A program made the translations under genes and the position numbers. The notes beneath the pieces are model-generated. The model ran no database searches. It was not told the DNA's origin and saw nothing but the letters and a program-made list of their open reading frames with translations. Shown here one piece after another: positions 5,560 through 59,981 of a DNA stretch of 64,000 nucleotides; the stretch's first letter is position 1; each line of letters starts with the position of its first letter. This DNA is from a virus (lineage: Duplodnaviria > Caudoviricetes): the IMG/VR virus record IMGVR_UViG_3300033463_006479, positions 64,001 through 128,000 of that record. One strand, 5' to 3'.

Positions 5560-6198
5560 CTAATATCTGAAATTTGGTTGCAGCTCTTCCTCATATTGCA
5601 TTGGGCAGTTTTTGAATATGTCGTGGCGATGCCACACATTTCCAACCGACCATCTGGATAGGTCGCCTTTAAATATTGAATCGCAAAACATATACGACAT
5701 TTTCGTAACATTGCTCACATTCCAGTTGGAAATGTCGCCGTTGAAATCCGAATTTTGGAACATATTCTCCATATTTAAAACTTTTCCGACATTCCATTTT
5801 GATATGTCGCCATCAAAGTATGAATTGTAAAACATATATGACATATTTGTAACATTGCCAACATTCCAGTTGGAAATGTCGCCGTTGAATTTTGAGCTTT
5901 GGAACATACCAGTCATATTTTTCGCATTTCTGACATTCCATTCAGATATGTTTCCATCAAAATCCTTTAATGTGGAAATGGAAAACAAATATGAGAAGTT
6001 CGTTATGCAAGAAACATCAATGTCGTTCAAGTTGCAAAAAAAGCCATATTCTTCAATGTGGTTTTCTATGCAAACAATCAGTTCGCCTTTTGTTTTTGGA
6101 TGGTGTTTGTGTGGACGCAGTTCGGCCAGCCTTGTTTTTGAAACTGGCTTGATGCCAAGTTTTTCGTTTATATATCGGTCGGCATTAAGTATTCCCAT
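5560..6198 (-). CDS. BspA/DUF285-type LRR protein, tagged
   Basis: DUF285 repeats; YINEKLGIKPVSKTRL. Confidence 0.85.
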   Translation of the reverse strand: MGILNADRYINEKLGIKPVSKTRLAELRPHKHHPKTKGELIVCIENHIEEYGFFCNLNDIDVSCITNFSYLFSISTLKDFDGNISEWNVRNAKNMTGMFQSSKFNGDISNWNVGNVTNMSYMFYNSYFDGDISKWNVGKVLNMENMFQNSDFNGDISNWNVSNVTKMSYMFCDSIFKGDLSRWSVGNVWHRHDIFKNCPMQYEEELQPNFRY

Positions 6199-6223: not shown

Positions 6224-6235
6224 TATTTATAAATA
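6224..6235. promoter_or_regulatory. Overlapping bidirectional late promoter (palindrome TATTTATAAATA)
   Basis: TATAAATA on both strands between divergent tagged genes starting at 6198(-) and 6252(+). Confidence 0.6.
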
Positions 6236-6251
6236 TAGAAATTATTTTTGT

Positions 6252-6401
6252 ATGGAAATACTGAAATCAGAACAATATCTAAACAAGAAACTGAACATTA
6301 CTCCAGTAACAAAAACAAGGCTTGACGGATTTGCCAAACCTACTGTTGATGAACATACAAAAAAGTTTATAACAAGCAATGGGTTGGTAACAGTTTATTG
6401 A
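6252..6401 (+). pseudogene. Truncated tagged gene (MEILKSEQYLNKKLNITPVTKTRL...), ending at the tnpB element left end
   Basis: Tag present, no payload domain; stop lies just inside the element. Confidence 0.55.
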
Positions 6402-7861
6402 AAATCTAATGAAAACTACGAAAAACGTATAAAAACAAACCCGTATAAATATATTATAGTTTAATGCTATTTATATAATGAAACGAAAGTGGAGAGTCGT
6501 TTCAAAATAGAATAAGATATATACAGAGGTTTTATCCTTGTCGGTACTCTCCACATTACTACCACAAGTTTAATGCCTCTTTTTTATTGATATGTTGCGA
6601 GGAATCAAGGTAAGGTTATATCCGAACAAGGAACAGCAGGCAAGACTGAATCAAGTTCTTGGTTGTTACCGTTTTGTGTATAACAAGACGCTCGAACTCA
6701 AACGCAATGCTTATGATGAAGACAAAACAACTCTTGGATTAACTGACATTTCAAAATGGTTTCACGGAACATTATTGAAAGACGAGAACTACACTTGGTT
6801 GCAGGAGCAGAACACAAAGGTGATGAAGCAGTCAATCAGACAAATGCTTGACGCTTATTCAAAGTTTTTCAAACAACACAACGGATTTCCGAAGTTCAAA
6901 TCCAAGAAAGACAAGCAGTCAGCACTGTTTCCGTCAGAAGCGATTTCCAAACGCAACACGTTCAATGAAAGAAAAATAACGCTGACTCAAGACTTAAAGG
7001 ACATAAGATTCAGATGTTCGGACTTGTATTACAAGAGACTTCAAGACCACAAGGACAAGATAAGAAGTGCGACCGTTTCGAGAACCAAGAGCGGCAACTA
7101 CTTCTTATCCATCCTTGTTGACATCCCGCAGAATGAACTTATCAAGTTCAAGCATACCAAGCAATGCGTTGGCATTGACCTCGGAGTCAAGGATTTTGTA
7201 ATCACAAGTGACGGTGAGGTCTTTGAAAACAAACACTTTTTCAAGAAGCAAGAAAGAAAAGTCAAAAGATTACAGAGGCAGCAGTCAAGAAAACAGAAAG
7301 GTTCGCACAACCAAGAGAAACAACGTGTCAGAATCGCAAAGGCGTTTGAAAGACTGACCAATCAGAAAGACGCTTACATCCATTCGGTTGTAAATGCTTT
7401 GCTATCCTTGTATGACTTGGTTTGTATGGAGGACTTGAATGTTCAAGGAATGCTGAAGAACCACAAACTTGCAAAGGCAATCCAAGAAGTTGGTTTCTAC
7501 AAGTTCAAGCAGATTTTACTTGACAAGGCAAATGTAAATGACAAGCAAGTCGTGTTGGTTGACCGTTTCTATCCGAGCAGTAAGACCTGCCACACGTGTG
7601 GTTACATCAAGAAAGACTTGACTTTGAGCGACCGTGAATGGGTCTGCCCTATTTGTGGTGAACACCACGACAGAGATGTGAATGCAGCGATTAACATCTT
7701 GTGTGAAGGTTTAAGAATAATAGGTGTCCGTAGCACCGAATTTACGCTTGCGGACTGCCCAACTATGGATGACCGTCTGGCAACAGACCTAAAAAGTAGT
7801 GGCAGGTTGAAACAAGAAAGAAGGACTAATAATTCCAGTTTTATTAGATTTTTCTATACGG
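6392..7861 (+). mobile_element. Non-autonomous TnpB-only element (IS607/IS200-605-like)
   Basis: Left end after AACAG is homologous to the left end of the element at 59813; imperfect inverted ends (gaaaatctaatgaaaact / agttttattagattttt); no tnpA; right boundary approximate. Confidence 0.6.
6479..6586 (+). ncRNA. Conserved structured RNA (two hairpins with complementary loops, then U-tract) upstream of tnpB
   Basis: Near-identical copy at 59620-59726(-) with compensatory changes in paired regions. Confidence 0.6.
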
Positions 7862-7893
7862 TTCGTTTGAATTTGACAGATAATATTGTTTAA
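6592..7893 (+). CDS. tnpB: TnpB RNA-guided endonuclease (IS605 OrfB type)
   Basis: HTH start (KVRLYPNKEQ..GCYRFVYN), RuvC-I GIDLGVKD, RuvC-II EDL, Zn ribbon CHTCG..CPICG, RuvC-III DRDVNAAINI. Confidence 0.92.
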   Translation: MLRGIKVRLYPNKEQQARLNQVLGCYRFVYNKTLELKRNAYDEDKTTLGLTDISKWFHGTLLKDENYTWLQEQNTKVMKQSIRQMLDAYSKFFKQHNGFPKFKSKKDKQSALFPSEAISKRNTFNERKITLTQDLKDIRFRCSDLYYKRLQDHKDKIRSATVSRTKSGNYFLSILVDIPQNELIKFKHTKQCVGIDLGVKDFVITSDGEVFENKHFFKKQERKVKRLQRQQSRKQKGSHNQEKQRVRIAKAFERLTNQKDAYIHSVVNALLSLYDLVCMEDLNVQGMLKNHKLAKAIQEVGFYKFKQILLDKANVNDKQVVLVDRFYPSSKTCHTCGYIKKDLTLSDREWVCPICGEHHDRDVNAAINILCEGLRIIGVRSTEFTLADCPTMDDRLATDLKSSGRLKQERRTNNSSFIRFFYTVRLNLTDNIV

Positions 7894-7907
7894 TATAAAA
7901 TTGAAAT

Positions 7908-8645
7908 ATGAGAAGAGAATACGAGCAGTCCGCCCCCCCCCCACAACCGACAGAAGTTTATTTAACTAATGTGTATTGTGAAAACAACACTGTGGTTGAC
8001 CACGCCGTAAATGTTAATTATCCTTGGGGAACAACAACGGATGGTGTATGGTTTACAAATGGAAACGTGACAAATAGAGCTTATTACATATACGCAAACG
8101 GCGGATATAAGTCGGTATATATAAATAGAAGTATAAAATGGAACACATCAACGCCAAATCCTCCAACAAATGGCGTATGCCCAGAATATTTCGGTTTTGG
8201 GCTGCGGTTTAAAACAATGTTTTATTCAACAACACATACAAATGGCAAAGAACCATTAAGCTGCTTATCGCATAATAACACAGCATATCGTGGTTATTGT
8301 TTGATTTGGATGTACAATTCTGGATGGTATTGGGCTTTATGCAAAAACTCGTATGACCCAGCTGCGTCCAATGTTACAAAAATACAAATACCGTATGTTG
8401 AAACCCAAAGCAGTCCTATGATTATACAATGGGATTTCAACGCAACGCAAAATCGTTTTAAGGCGTTTGACAATTTTGGAAATCTTTTGGCAGACAGCGG
8501 CATTGATACTTCCCTGCATAGCAATGAACGTGTACTTCAACTTATGTGTGGTAACTGGAACAGTGGCAATCAATGCAATCCTACTTGTTATTACAAATAC
8601 ATACAATTCATAGATGGAACAAGTGTTGATGATTTTTTGCAATAG
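7908..8645 (+). CDS. Hypothetical beta-rich (N/T/Y/W-rich) protein, possibly virion/receptor-binding domain
   Basis: 245-aa ORF filling gap before tail tube gene; composition only. Confidence 0.45.
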   Translation: MRREYEQSAPPPQPTEVYLTNVYCENNTVVDHAVNVNYPWGTTTDGVWFTNGNVTNRAYYIYANGGYKSVYINRSIKWNTSTPNPPTNGVCPEYFGFGLRFKTMFYSTTHTNGKEPLSCLSHNNTAYRGYCLIWMYNSGWYWALCKNSYDPAASNVTKIQIPYVETQSSPMIIQWDFNATQNRFKAFDNFGNLLADSGIDTSLHSNERVLQLMCGNWNSGNQCNPTCYYKYIQFIDGTSVDDFLQ

Positions 8646-57855: not shown

Positions 57856-57929
57856 TGCCGCTGGGTGGATTCGAACCACCGTCTCCTCCTTATGAGAGAG
57901 GCGCAAGAAACCACCTCCGCTACAGCGAC
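57856..57929 (-). tRNA. tRNA-Met/Ile2(CAT)
   Basis: cctct-ctCATaa-ggagg. Confidence 0.75.
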
Positions 57930-57970
57930 AGAATTAGTCGCACTATCGCAGGACTATAAGCTCCGAAGAA

Positions 57971-59611
57971 CTAAACATAGTCAAAAGTGGTCACACCACT
58001 TTCACTACGTTCACCATCTGATTTGTTCATCAGACTTCTTCGGAACGACAACAGCACATCTTTAACTTTCTCACGTTTGAGTTTTCTCGGTTCGTATGCG
58101 CCGTTGCCAAGTCGTTTTAAGAGCGAATCACGCAACACGGTTACGGTCACTCTGTTCTTTATATTGACAGATGCGTTGTGGTCTGCATTGTCCTTATGCC
58201 CGCATTCAACGCATTCAAAGGTCTCTTGGCTCGGTCTGTTTTCATCTGCGATGCAACCACAAATCGGACACATCTTTGAGGTGTAACTCGCCTGCACTGT
58301 TGACAATGCGATACCATATTTCCTTGCAATGTGTTCAACCTCATCTTTTAGACTGCTCAATCCGAGGAACTTGACCTTTCTATTGTAGTTTATATCCTCG
58401 TTGTCTTTATCCTTGATGTAACACCTTCCAAAACCATTGTCAAGGTCTTCCATAACGATGTGGTCAACACCATCCAACATCAACGACTTGCACATCTTTG
58501 AAATGAGTTCTTGTTCGGATTTCTGCATCTTCATCTTGAGTGTGTCAAGTTTCTGCTGTTTGCGCTTGCCGATGGTGTAGTTCTTGTCTTTCTTCAGTTC
58601 GTCCACTTTCAATGACAGTTTGCAGAAGTCATTGACTAACTTACGGTTGTAGTCATAGGCAGTTTCGTTTGACAGACTGAAGAGATTGTGCTTGCAGTTC
58701 ACGTCAATTCCTACCACGTTGTCTCCTGCTTCTGGTATGTATCTCTGACCATCCTTGCACAAGTTGATATTGACTTGATGGTATTTTTCGTTGAATGTAA
58801 GCACATATTCGTAGTCGGGATTGGATTTGCGGTAGTCATTCATACTTCCGTGCCAATCCTTGTTGAACCTCACTGGGATGTCAAACGACTTTCTTTCGAT
58901 TCCAGACAGACTGACAAAGGAGTTGATTACCGAACCAAACTTCTTGTTGTAGTCAATGATTCTCGTCTTCCTGCACCTGCCTCCGAATGACAATGACTTG
59001 AACTCAATCGGATGCTCGGAATAACAATCGATGATTCTGTTTCGTTTCCGCAAGGCAAGTTCCATAAGTCTGTCAAAACCGAACTTGTTACAGCAACGTA
59101 TGATGTTGTTGTAGAAGTCTCGCTTCTTGTCATCGCAGGTCTCCAACTGCTTGATGATATATTCCAATGTGTTATCGTTTCCGTATCTTGCAAGATAAGT
59201 CAGACAGATTGACAATGGTGTTTTGCTATTCTCCGTTACGACATTCTTCAAGTCGCCTTTCTTGTTCTTCTTGGTGTCACGCTTGTAGAACTCAAATCCG
59301 ACAAATCTTATAACTTCAAAGTCAAGGTGTTTTCGGATTGCTTCAAACTTGTTCTGGTAGCAGTTGAACACTTGTGTATATAGTTGCATATCAAACGAAC
59401 TCGGAATGGCATCCTTGTATCTCGCCCTCATCCCCTTCAAGAAGTCGAATTTTGAATATTCAAGGTACTTTTCAAGATTGGAGTTCACATATTCGGAAAC
59501 AAGGTTCTTATGGTCACGCAGCATAACAGCAAACGAATGTAAATCGTCATACTTCTGACGTGTTAAGTCGTTTGACTTGAATGTTTTTGTGTATTTGCTG
59601 TCTATGACCAT
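57971..59611 (-). CDS. Large divergent TnpB-like RuvC nuclease (~546 aa)
   Basis: RuvC-I VVGIDVNCKH, RuvC-II VMEDL, YTSKMCPICG..F.CVECG Zn ribbon, RuvC-III NADHNASVNI. Confidence 0.85.
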   Translation of the reverse strand: MVIDSKYTKTFKSNDLTRQKYDDLHSFAVMLRDHKNLVSEYVNSNLEKYLEYSKFDFLKGMRARYKDAIPSSFDMQLYTQVFNCYQNKFEAIRKHLDFEVIRFVGFEFYKRDTKKNKKGDLKNVVTENSKTPLSICLTYLARYGNDNTLEYIIKQLETCDDKKRDFYNNIIRCCNKFGFDRLMELALRKRNRIIDCYSEHPIEFKSLSFGGRCRKTRIIDYNKKFGSVINSFVSLSGIERKSFDIPVRFNKDWHGSMNDYRKSNPDYEYVLTFNEKYHQVNINLCKDGQRYIPEAGDNVVGIDVNCKHNLFSLSNETAYDYNRKLVNDFCKLSLKVDELKKDKNYTIGKRKQQKLDTLKMKMQKSEQELISKMCKSLMLDGVDHIVMEDLDNGFGRCYIKDKDNEDINYNRKVKFLGLSSLKDEVEHIARKYGIALSTVQASYTSKMCPICGCIADENRPSQETFECVECGHKDNADHNASVNIKNRVTVTVLRDSLLKRLGNGAYEPRKLKREKVKDVLLSFRRSLMNKSDGERSESGVTTFDYV

Positions 59612-59619
59612 ATTACAAT

Positions 59620-59726
59620 AAAAAAGAGGCATTAAACTTGCGGCAGTAATGCGAGGAGTGCCATCAAGGATAAAACCTCTGTATATCTTTATTGTTATTT
59701 TGAAACGACTCCTCGCTTTCGTTTCA
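59620..59726 (-). ncRNA. Second copy of the conserved kissing-loop RNA upstream of tnpB-like gene
   Basis: gcgaggagt/actcctcgc replaces gtggagagt/actctccac of copy 1. Confidence 0.6.
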
Positions 59727-59897
59727 TTATATAAATAGTCTTAAACTATAATATATTTATACGAGTTACTTTTGAACATTTTTGACTACTTTTGAATAGG
59801 TTTATCAACTTCTGTTGCTATCCCAAAGCGTCCGACTTCACGGAAGGAATCCTCACGTGCTGAACTCCTATAATATCATTAAAAATATGAAAAACTT

Positions 59898-59981
59898 GGG
59901 CGTAGGGTGGGATTCGAACCCACATATAGAATAAATCCACAGAGCCACAATCTGTTGCATAGCCATTCTGCCACCTACGCC
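59898..59981 (-). tRNA. tRNA-His(GTG) with unusually long variable region
   Basis: acaga-ttGTGgc-tctgt; G-1; ~15-nt variable region. Confidence 0.75.

What the first reader, a model, noticed from the sequence alone, without database searches (positions are those of the whole stretch)
6444..6591. Covarying kissing-loop RNA shared upstream of two very different tnpB genes
The ~200 nt before tnpB (6592+) and before the divergent tnpB-like gene (59611-) are homologous although the proteins are not alike at their N-termini. Both have TATAAATA, then hairpin 1 (tgaaacga/tcgtttca), then hairpin 2 (agagg..cttg../..caag..cctct) and a U-tract just before the ATG. The differences are compensatory. Loop 1 gtggagagt (6489-6497) complements loop 2 actctccac (6546-6554); in copy 2 these become gcgaggagt/actcctcgc. 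The stem cttgtcggta/taccacaag becomes cttgatggca/tgccgcaag. Known: TnpB omega-RNAs are encoded at the 3' end, so a conserved 5' pseudoknotted RNA is not explained by the standard model. It may be an attenuator/riboregulator coupling TnpB to late transcription, a trans-acting scaffold, or an ssDNA end structure.
Basis: partly seen in the sequence, partly recalled or inferred. Interest (0 to 1): 0.8.

Follow-up and report, generated by a model that had tools for sequence, protein, structure and literature searches.

The report
Kissing-loop leader RNA before phage tnpB
Two unrelated RNA-guided nuclease (TnpB) genes in this huge rumen phage are each preceded by the same uncatalogued folded RNA of about 110 bases, in which two hairpin tips always pair with each other and which ends in a terminator-like hairpin; it probably limits how much nuclease is made.

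Summary
The block 6444-6591(+) recurs at 59761-59616(-) and a third time in the same phage, outside the window.

I found 21 distinct versions in related megaphage contigs. Every one lies directly upstream of a TnpB gene of one of two unrelated types.

The layout is always the same:
- a T4-type late promoter box;
- hairpin P1;
- an A-rich linker, usually 19-21 nt;
- a long three-part hairpin P2;
- a run of 5-8 U;
- the ATG 5-23 nt later.

The loop of P1 and the loop of P2 are complementary over 8-9 bases in every copy, with about 12 different sequences. In 20 sequences, 95.6% of cells in this helix pair and 7 of 9 pairs change on both sides. Shuffled and slid controls pair far less.

The RNA matches no Rfam 15 family, and I found no paper describing it. 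It is not the guide RNA: both TnpB types keep their own conserved guide-RNA scaffold at the 3' end. In autonomous IS607 relatives, tnpA sits upstream of tnpB, where the module sits here.

My best reading (about 0.5) is a cis-acting attenuating leader that keeps the selfish nuclease weakly expressed. No transcript data could be obtained.

This scan had already reported the same leader on other, related phage DNA.

The parts
6380..6443 (+). Left-end segment of the tnpA-less type-1 element (TGGGTTGGTAACAG...). Its GAAAATCTAATGAAAAC is an inverted repeat of the right end at 7843-7855.
   Evidence: Homologous among type-1 loci but only about 66% identical to type 2. The inverted repeat is read.
6444..6451 (+). 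TATAAATA, a T4-type late promoter box. With its inverted partner TATTTATA (6468-6475) it forms a weak upstream hairpin, P0.
   Evidence: TATAAATA occurs 21 times in the window against 4.3 expected. Several homologues carry a TATAAATA box 3-5 nt before P1.
6468..6479 (+). Promoter-proximal box TATTTATATAAT directly before P1. It is the most conserved upstream element of the module.
   Evidence: Alignments. In L018-L024 the equivalent box abuts the ATG with no module in between.
6480..6503 (+). Hairpin P1 (GAAACG/CGTTTC) with a 12-nt loop, AAA + GTGGAGAGT.
   Evidence: 5 of 6 pairs change on both sides and 98.3% of cells pair.
6489..6497 (+). Kissing strand 1 (GTGGAGAGT), in the P1 loop.
   Evidence: Pairs with 6546-6554. 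7 of 9 pairs change on both sides and 95.6% of cells pair. Duplex energy -14.2 kcal/mol.
6504..6524 (+). A-rich single-stranded linker: 21 nt, 61% A.
   Evidence: Length is 19-21 nt in 18 of 20 homologues and A content is 47-66%.
6525..6580 (+). Long three-part hairpin P2: P2a AGAGGT/GCCTCT, P2b CTTGT/ACAAG, P2c GGT/ACC, with a 13-nt apical loop.
   Evidence: MFE fold. The upper helix has 5 of 8 pairs with changes on both sides. With its U-tract it is the fifth strongest hairpin+T6 site in the 64-kb window.
6546..6554 (+). Kissing strand 2 (ACTCTCCAC), in the P2 loop.
6580..6585 (+). U-tract (T6) directly after P2, 6 nt before the ATG.
   Evidence: Five to eight T directly after P2 in all aligned members (one divergent copy has a 2-nt spacer), including the most divergent ones.
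6592..7893 (+). Type-1 tnpB (433 aa), with an intact RuvC D-E-D triad.
   Evidence: Pfam HTH_OrfB_IS605, OrfB_IS605 and TNB. NCBIfam guided_TnpB at 315 bits. Motifs GIDLG, MEDL and DRDVNAA are read.
7722..7861 (+). Canonical 3' guide-RNA (omega RNA) scaffold of the type-1 element. The hairpin GGTGT-CCGTA-GCACC has a loop that pairs with TACGG at 7857-7861; the guide starts after it.
   Evidence: Twelve loci align up to TACGG(T) and diverge immediately after. The hairpin changes are compensatory: GGTGT/GCACC, GGCAG/CTGCC, GGGTC/GACCC.
59616..59761 (-). Copy 2 of the module. TATAAATA 59761-59754; P1 59725-59702; kissing strand 1 GCGAGGAGT 59716-59708; P2 59680-59625; kissing strand 2 ACTCCTCGC 59659-59651; U-tract 59625-59620.
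   Evidence: R1 hit at 132.5 bits. Third strongest hairpin+T6 site in the window.
57971..59611 (-). Type-2 tnpB-like gene (546 aa) with a divergent N-terminal half and RuvC motifs present.
   Evidence: Pfam TNB plus a weak OrfB_IS605 match. guided_TnpB scores 94.9 bits, just under the cut-off of 100. Sequence.
57962..58050 (-). Conserved 3' block of the type-2 element, a putative guide-RNA scaffold. TCCGAAGA (58044-58037) is complementary to the terminal TCTTCGGA (57969-57962), where homology ends.
   Evidence: Seven loci align up to TTCTTCGGA and diverge right after. The inner hairpins change compensatorily.

Best explanation
The block is a cis-acting 5' leader RNA of about 105-120 nt that belongs to tnpA-less, IS607-derived tnpB elements of T4-type rumen megaphages.

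It is transcribed from the element's own late promoter (TATAAATA / TATTTATATAAT) in the sense direction. It folds into a 5'-proximal hairpin P1 and a long imperfect hairpin P2. The two apical loops pair over 8-9 bp.

In each loop the pairing strand runs straight into one arm of its stem. The loop-loop helix can therefore stack between P1 and P2 as one rod, with the A-rich linker of fairly constant length running back along it.

P2 ends in a G+C-rich base followed directly by U5-U8, which is an intrinsic-terminator signature, 5-23 nt before the tnpB AUG.

Inferred mechanism:
- Most transcripts stop here, both those from the element's own promoter and those reading in from upstream phage genes.
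- Only read-through molecules carry tnpB and its 3' guide RNA, so the selfish nuclease is made late and in small amounts.
- The kiss clamps the weak apical part of P2 (3-4 bp closing a 13-nt loop), so that the long hairpin forms quickly and reliably.

Shown: the fold, its strand, its exclusive position before tnpB, and its independence from the guide RNA. Inferred: transcription, termination and the direction of the effect on expression.
For: Structure:
- On 20 distinct sequences 95.1% of cells pair, against 81.4% shuffled (0/500) and 39-51% when slid.
- The kissing helix has 7 of 9 pairs changed on both sides, P1 has 5 of 6 and upper P2 has 5 of 8.
- About 12 different loop words are each matched by their exact complement.

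Strand: 31 G.U cells against 8 A.C cells.

Terminator signature:
- A U5-8 run follows P2 in all members, directly in nearly all.
- The two window copies rank third and fifth among all hairpin+T6 sites in 64 kb, beside classical terminators.
- P2a plus the U-tract resembles a plain terminator of a sister phage, AGAGGG...CCCTCTTTTTTT.

Position:
- Every covariance-model hit at E <= 0.01 in 10 related phage records, and every hit of a protein-independent metagenome pattern scan, lies directly before a type-1 or type-2 tnpB.
- Sister copies place the same promoter box directly against the ATG, so the module is an insertion of about 120 nt between promoter and start codon.

Generic cassette:
- The module is 88% identical between two elements whose coding sequences are unrelated and whose guide-RNA scaffolds differ.
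- In autonomous relatives of both types, an IS607 transposase gene sits upstream of tnpB, where the module sits here.

Late promoter: TATAAATA is about 5-fold enriched in the window, and the module-less type-3 tnpB genes of the same genome also sit behind it.

Precedent: IS200 limits tnpA through a left-end terminator and a 5'UTR hairpin (PMC4513863).
Against:
- The terminator lies downstream of the element's own promoter, and no conserved alternative (anti-terminator) fold was found. How much read-through occurs, and what would modulate it, is therefore unknown.
- A 5'-terminal hairpin could raise mRNA stability instead, so the sign of the effect on TnpB is not established.
- Pairing of the linker with the U-tract/pre-AUG region, which would add translational occlusion, beat shuffles in only 4 of 20 members.
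- One member (L070) has a linker of only about 13 nt. That is short for a straight intramolecular stack.
Confidence: 0.5

Rival explanations
1. The terminated ~110-nt product is itself the functional molecule: a stable small RNA. That would give copy-specific feedback comparable to plasmid antisense copy-number control.
For: - It has the full anatomy of an sRNA gene: promoter, 5' hairpin, terminator.
- Covariation cannot tell intra- from intermolecular loop pairing.
- The three copies in this genome are effectively orthogonal: cognate duplexes are -14 to -16 kcal/mol, cross-copy duplexes -1.5 to -6.6.
- L070's short linker strains an intramolecular stack.
Against: - Orthogonality is not general. 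Two co-resident copies in G004 differ by a single pair, and two in G009 carry the same word.
- The fairly constant, A-rich linker (19-21 nt in 18 of 20) fits an intramolecular fold.
- No third copy of any loop word, and so no target, was found within the loci.
- It never occurs apart from a tnpB start codon.
Confidence: 0.2
2. It is a non-terminating 5' UTR that tunes mRNA stability and translation. P1 at the 5' end protects against 5'-end-dependent decay. The rod ending a few bases before the AUG limits, or positions, ribosome loading on an SD-less Bacteroidota-type mRNA.
For: - P1 begins about where a late-promoter transcript would start.
- Other type-1 relatives carry a simpler single 5' hairpin leader in the same place.
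- There is no Shine-Dalgarno before the ATG.
- In some members the linker can pair with the pre-AUG stretch.
Against: - The invariant U-tract directly after a G+C-rich stem base is what a terminator needs; a stabiliser does not need it.
- Linker/pre-AUG pairing is not better than shuffles in most members.
Confidence: 0.2
3. It is a second RNA partner of TnpB, such as a cofactor, decoy or autoregulatory operator bound by the nuclease.
For: - The association with tnpB genes is exclusive.
- TnpB-family proteins bind pseudoknotted RNAs (established knowledge).
Against: - The same module (88% identical) serves two TnpB types that share only 41 alignable residues and have different guide scaffolds.
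- Many close TnpB relatives lack it.
- Only the architecture is conserved across the family, not a sequence that could be read by a protein.
Confidence: 0.05
4. It is a single-stranded DNA structure used in transposition, an IS200/IS605-style end hairpin.
For: - G.T pairs are tolerated in DNA hairpins.
- It lies near the left end of a mobile element.
Against: - It lies about 65 nt inside the end and is absent from sister copies.
- The genome has no Y1 transposase.
- Autonomous relatives carry an IS607 serine recombinase.
- There is no matching structure at the right end.
- The U-tract and promoter context point to RNA.
Confidence: 0.03

Closest known systems
IS200 left-end control region (terminator at nt 12-34 plus a 5'UTR hairpin that occludes the tnpA ribosome site; PMC4513863)
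   Same: A mobile element of the same IS200/IS605/IS607 world uses RNA hairpins at its left end, one of them an intrinsic terminator, to keep its own gene weakly expressed and shielded from outside transcription.
   Different: - In IS200 the terminator lies upstream of the promoter; here it lies downstream.
- IS200 has no loop-loop pairing.
- IS200 controls tnpA, not tnpB.
- There is no sequence similarity.
- No antisense RNA like art200 is evident here.
Late-promoter/hairpin control of homing endonuclease genes in T-even phages (I-TevI and seg genes; recalled from established knowledge, not re-read here)
   Same: A selfish nuclease gene in a T4-type phage has its own TATAAATA late promoter and a structured leader, so the nuclease is made late and sparingly.
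   Different: - In T4 the late promoter lies inside the inhibitory hairpin, so late transcripts escape it.
- Here both hairpins lie downstream of the promoter boxes.
- There is no Shine-Dalgarno to sequester.
- The last hairpin looks like a terminator.
TnpB omega RNA / reRNA (3' guide-RNA scaffold with a pseudoknot)
   Same: It is a pseudoknotted RNA encoded by a tnpB element.
   Different: - It lies 5' of the gene rather than overlapping its 3' end.
- It is followed by the start codon, not by a guide at the element boundary.
- It is shared by two TnpB types that each keep their own different 3' scaffold.
   Same: Complementary hairpin loops covary. As for pRNA, comparative data alone cannot say whether the pairing is within or between molecules.
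   Different: - Both loops are on one sense transcript, next to a terminator and a start codon.
- The helix is 8-9 bp rather than 4-7.
- There is no link to replication control or packaging.

Membership tests
TnpB omega RNA / reRNA | Encoded at or overlapping the 3' end of tnpB and ending at the element's right end, directly followed by the guide | tested here: not met
   The module lies 5' of the ATG. The real 3' scaffolds are at 7722-7861 and about 58050-57962, and homology ends right after them.
TnpB omega RNA / reRNA | Scaffold co-varies with, and is specific to, its TnpB lineage | tested here: not met
   The module is 88% identical between two TnpB types with unrelated coding sequences.
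Any Rfam 15 family (including IS605-orfB motifs, HEARO, RAGATH motifs, self-cleaving ribozymes) | Covariance-model score at or near the gathering threshold | tested here: not met
   Only tRNAs reach gathering level in the window. Over 6380-6660 the best hits are E 8.5 and 9.1, far below threshold. Nothing was found for 7600-8200 either.
Intrinsic (Rho-independent) terminator | Stable hairpin with a G+C-rich base immediately followed by a U-run | tested here: met
   AGAGGT/GCCTCT plus T6. Energies are -15.9 and -17.5 kcal/mol, ranking fifth and third in the window. The U5-8 run is conserved in all members.
Intrinsic (Rho-independent) terminator | Transcripts actually end in the U-run | not testable with these tools
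T-even homing-endonuclease leader (late promoter inside an RBS-sequestering hairpin) | Late promoter lies within the inhibitory hairpin, so late transcripts lack its 5' arm | tested here: not met
   The TATAAATA / TATTTATATAAT boxes lie upstream of P1 and P2. No such box is found inside P2.
T-even homing-endonuclease leader (late promoter inside an RBS-sequestering hairpin) | Hairpin sequesters a Shine-Dalgarno or the start codon | tested here: inconclusive
   There is no SD before the ATG. P2 ends 6-24 nt before the start codon. Linker/pre-AUG pairing beats shuffles in only 4 of 20 members.
IS200/IS605 single-strand DNA end hairpins | Subterminal hairpins at both ends, recognised by a Y1 transposase | tested here: not met
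   The genome has no Y1 transposase. The module is about 65 nt internal and optional. Relatives carry an IS607 serine recombinase.

The most novel reading that the evidence does not exclude
The kiss is an address code. The terminated leader accumulates as a small RNA whose loops pair in trans with nascent leaders, or with other copies, of the same code. Each tnpB element would then sense its own transcript or copy level and feed back on read-through, and new codes would arise by paired loop changes much as plasmid incompatibility groups do. This would be an RNA-only dosage sensor for an RNA-guided nuclease in a phage.
Probability: 0.12. Interest if true: 0.8.

Novelty: new variant of a known kind. 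Interest (0 to 1): 0.6.

Why it matters
TnpB is the ancestor of Cas12 and a genome-editing tool, yet almost nothing is known about how its expression is controlled in nature, least of all in phages, where it probably acts as a homing nuclease.

This is a compact RNA with very clean covariation. It replaces tnpA in IS607-derived elements and is traded between unrelated tnpB lineages.

That gives a directly testable handle on the control of TnpB: termination assays, loop-swap mutants and reporters.

It also adds an uncatalogued RNA family with an unusually long loop-loop helix joined to a terminator. That is useful both for RNA structural biology and for annotating megaphage genomes.

Tried and rejected
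- Rfam, at gathering level on the whole window and at E <= 10 on both the 5' and 3' regions: no family found.
- A third partner for the loop words, such as a guide, target or right end, within each locus: none found.
- Guide-RNA identity: rejected, because both elements have separate 3' scaffolds.
- The small upstream ORF ATG-CCT-CTT-TTT-TAT-TGA in P2: its ATG is not conserved (ATA or ACG in L040, L050, L048), so it is not a leader peptide.
- Linker pairing with the U-tract/pre-AUG stretch as translational occlusion: better than shuffles in only 4 of 20, so inconclusive.
- A Bacteroidota-type promoter (TAnnTTTG-like TATCCTTG) inside P2 that would let transcripts escape the terminator: not conserved in divergent members, so dropped (read).
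- General orthogonality of loop codes between co-resident copies: holds in this genome but not in G004 or G009.
- A broader covariance model at E <= 1 on five genomes: only two extra marginal hits, one a plain terminator and one inside coding sequence.
- A search for type-2 TnpB in bacterial and archaeal genomes: only one short, probably mis-binned contig and one weak hit.
- Literature searches for a 5' kissing-loop RNA of tnpB: nothing found.

Full report
**What is there.** The window is bases 64001-128000 of a 192-kb IMG/VR virus record, about 70% complete. It is an AT-rich, tRNA-rich rumen megaphage with distant DNA similarity to the Prevotella Lak phages.

The flagged block 6444-6591(+) and its partner 59761-59616(-) align without trouble. 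Identity starts abruptly at CGTATAAATA and ends at TTATTG, just before the two start codons.

The genes behind them are a standard TnpB (433 aa; HTH_OrfB_IS605, OrfB_IS605 and TNB domains; guided_TnpB 315 bits) and a divergent 546-aa TnpB-like protein (TNB; guided_TnpB 94.9 bits). The two share only a 41-residue zinc-ribbon/RuvC-III stretch. Both keep the RuvC motifs.

The module is 88% identical between the two elements, while the coding sequences are at background level, about 52%.

**Is it more than chance?** A covariance model built from ten copies found a third copy in the same phage, outside the window, in front of a type-2 paralogue. It also found further copies in nine related phage records.

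A protein-independent pattern scan of metagenome contigs gave eight more distinct versions. In all I have 21 distinct sequences.

Each has:
- P1 of 5-7 bp;
- a purine-rich spacer of 2-3 nt, then an 8-9-nt word in the P1 loop;
- an A-rich linker;
- a three-part P2 whose loop begins with the exact complement of that word, followed by 4-7 A/U-rich bases;
- a U5-U8 run;
- the ATG 5-23 nt later.

About a dozen different words occur, among them GTGGAGAGT, GCGAGGAGT, GTGGCACG, GTGGACAG, GTAGGAAGT, GTGAGGAGT, GGAGAGAG, GCAGAGAG, GCAGCAAGA, AAGTGCAGA and GTGGAAGC. Each is matched by its complement.

Pair counts on 20 distinct sequences:

| Measure | Value |
|---|---|
| Cells paired, whole structure | 95.1% |
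| Cells paired, shuffled partners | 81.4% (0/500 shuffles reach the observed value) |
| Cells paired, partners slid 1-3 columns | 39-51% |
| Kissing helix, cells paired | 95.6% |
| Kissing helix, pairs changed on both sides | 7 of 9 |
| P1, pairs changed on both sides | 5 of 6 |
| Upper P2, pairs changed on both sides | 5 of 8 |

These figures are; the 13-sequence count agrees. G.U cells outnumber A.C cells 31 to 8, so the folded strand is the sense strand of tnpB.

**What it is not.** It matches no Rfam 15 family.

It is not the TnpB guide RNA. Twelve type-1 loci share a 3' scaffold: the hairpin GGTGT-CCGTA-GCACC, with compensatory variants, whose loop pairs with a terminal TACGG. Their homology stops right after that TACGG, at 7861 in the window.

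Seven type-2 loci share a different 3' scaffold that ends at TTCTTCGGA, at 57962 in the window. So each element has the standard 3' guide RNA, and the 5' RNA is an extra part.

It is also not a DNA end structure:
- It lies about 65 nt inside the left end.
- Sister copies of the same element place the promoter box directly against the ATG and lack it.
- The genome has no Y1 transposase.
- Autonomous relatives of both TnpB types carry an IS607 serine transposase, at 200 and 190 bits, directly upstream of tnpB, where the promoter-plus-leader module sits here.

**Context.** TATAAATA, the T4 late-promoter word, occurs 21 times in the window against 4.3 expected. The phage has six full tnpB genes. 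Three carry the module. Three are of a third type with TATAAATA 17-20 nt before the ATG and no leader.

Other type-1 relatives have a simpler one-hairpin leader. So late-promoter-driven tnpB is the rule in these phages, and the kissing-loop leader is an add-on between promoter and start codon.

All model hits at E <= 0.01 in ten related records are directly before tnpB. Five other tnpB-bearing megaphage records have none.

**How it most likely works.** P2 has a G+C-rich base (AGAGGT/GCCTCT, or GGAGG/CCTCC in divergent members) followed directly by the U-run. The window's two copies are the third and fifth most stable hairpin+T6 sites in all 64 kb, beside textbook terminators. They also resemble a plain terminator of a sister phage.

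The U-run is kept even where the rest of the sequence has diverged. I therefore read the module as an attenuating leader. Transcripts from the element's own late promoter, and from upstream phage genes, mostly stop a few bases before the tnpB AUG. Only read-through molecules make TnpB and its guide RNA.

The geometry of the loops fits a true loop-loop helix stacked between P1 and P2:
- Each pairing strand is contiguous with one stem arm.
- There is a 2-3-nt spacer on the 5' side of loop 1.
- There is a 4-7-nt spacer on the 3' side of loop 2.
- The A-rich linker is 19-21 nt in 18 of 20 sequences.

The loop-loop duplexes are strong, at -12 to -16 kcal/mol. They would clamp the weak top of P2.

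This mechanism is an inference. I could obtain no transcript data, I found no conserved alternative fold, and the sign of the effect on expression is not established.

**Rivals.**
- The terminated product could be a small RNA that works in trans. In this genome the three loop codes are orthogonal: cognate -14 to -16 kcal/mol, cross -1.5 to -6.6. That does not hold in two other genomes, and no target was found.
- It could be a non-terminating stabiliser or translation tuner. Linker pairing with the pre-AUG stretch beats shuffles in only 4 of 20.
- A TnpB-binding role is unlikely, because two unrelated TnpB types share the same module.

**Known comparators and novelty.**
- The nearest functional precedent is the IS200 left end, with a terminator plus a 5'UTR hairpin limiting tnpA (PMC4513863).
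- From established knowledge, the late-promoter/hairpin leaders of T-even homing endonuclease genes are also close. The defining arrangement of those leaders, a promoter inside the inhibitory hairpin, is not met here.
- Full-text searches found no description of a 5' kissing-loop RNA of tnpB.
- Earlier notes of this scan report the same kind of leader on related phage DNA, and a shorter kissing-loop tnpB leader in Poribacteria. I treated these as leads only. My counts are on my own alignments.

I rate it a new variant of a known kind, namely leader RNAs that restrain mobile-element genes. The new elements are the long covarying kiss joined to a terminator and the exchange of the module between tnpB lineages.

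Noticed in passing
window 7933-7942: A C10 homopolymer sits in codons 9-12 of ORF 7908-8645, about 70 nt past the right end of the type-1 tnpB element. This is striking in a phage of about 32-35% GC and could be a slippage-prone tract.
   Followed up: no
L085, L086, L087 (G000:C1 about 154.5 kb, 11.2 kb and 62.2 kb); truncated copy in L091: A third TnpB type (about 410 aa, MERVYTYKF...) has perfect terminal inverted repeats CGGAATTATCCC(T/A)TTTAGTCTTGTAA and TATAAATA 17-20 nt before the ATG. It has no leader module.
   Followed up: partly
L043 874-1494; L051 874-1497: Related phages hold autonomous IS607 forms of both TnpB types. The IS607 transposase gene ends a few bases before the tnpB ATG.
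   Followed up: yes
L030, L035-L039, about 60 nt before the ATG at about 1495-1501: These loci have a simpler leader variant: a TATTTATATAAT box, one hairpin AATGGGTnnnnACCCATT and a U-rich run before tnpB.
   Followed up: no
window 57856-59980 (-): The type-2 element is wedged into the phage tRNA array. One tRNA (59899-59980) lies about 70 nt upstream of its left end, and another (57856-57929) starts about 33 nt after its right end. In L042 the type-1 element abuts a tRNA 3' end.
   Followed up: partly
window 6224-6235: A palindromic double late-promoter word, TATTTATAAATA, lies between the divergent genes 5560-6198(-) and 6252(+). The same composite word precedes P1 in L009, L040 and L042.
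   Followed up: no
window 5560-6198 (-): A DUF285 (BspA-type repeat) protein gene lies next to the element. Earlier scan notes describe a large family of such tagged cargo genes in this phage.
   Followed up: no
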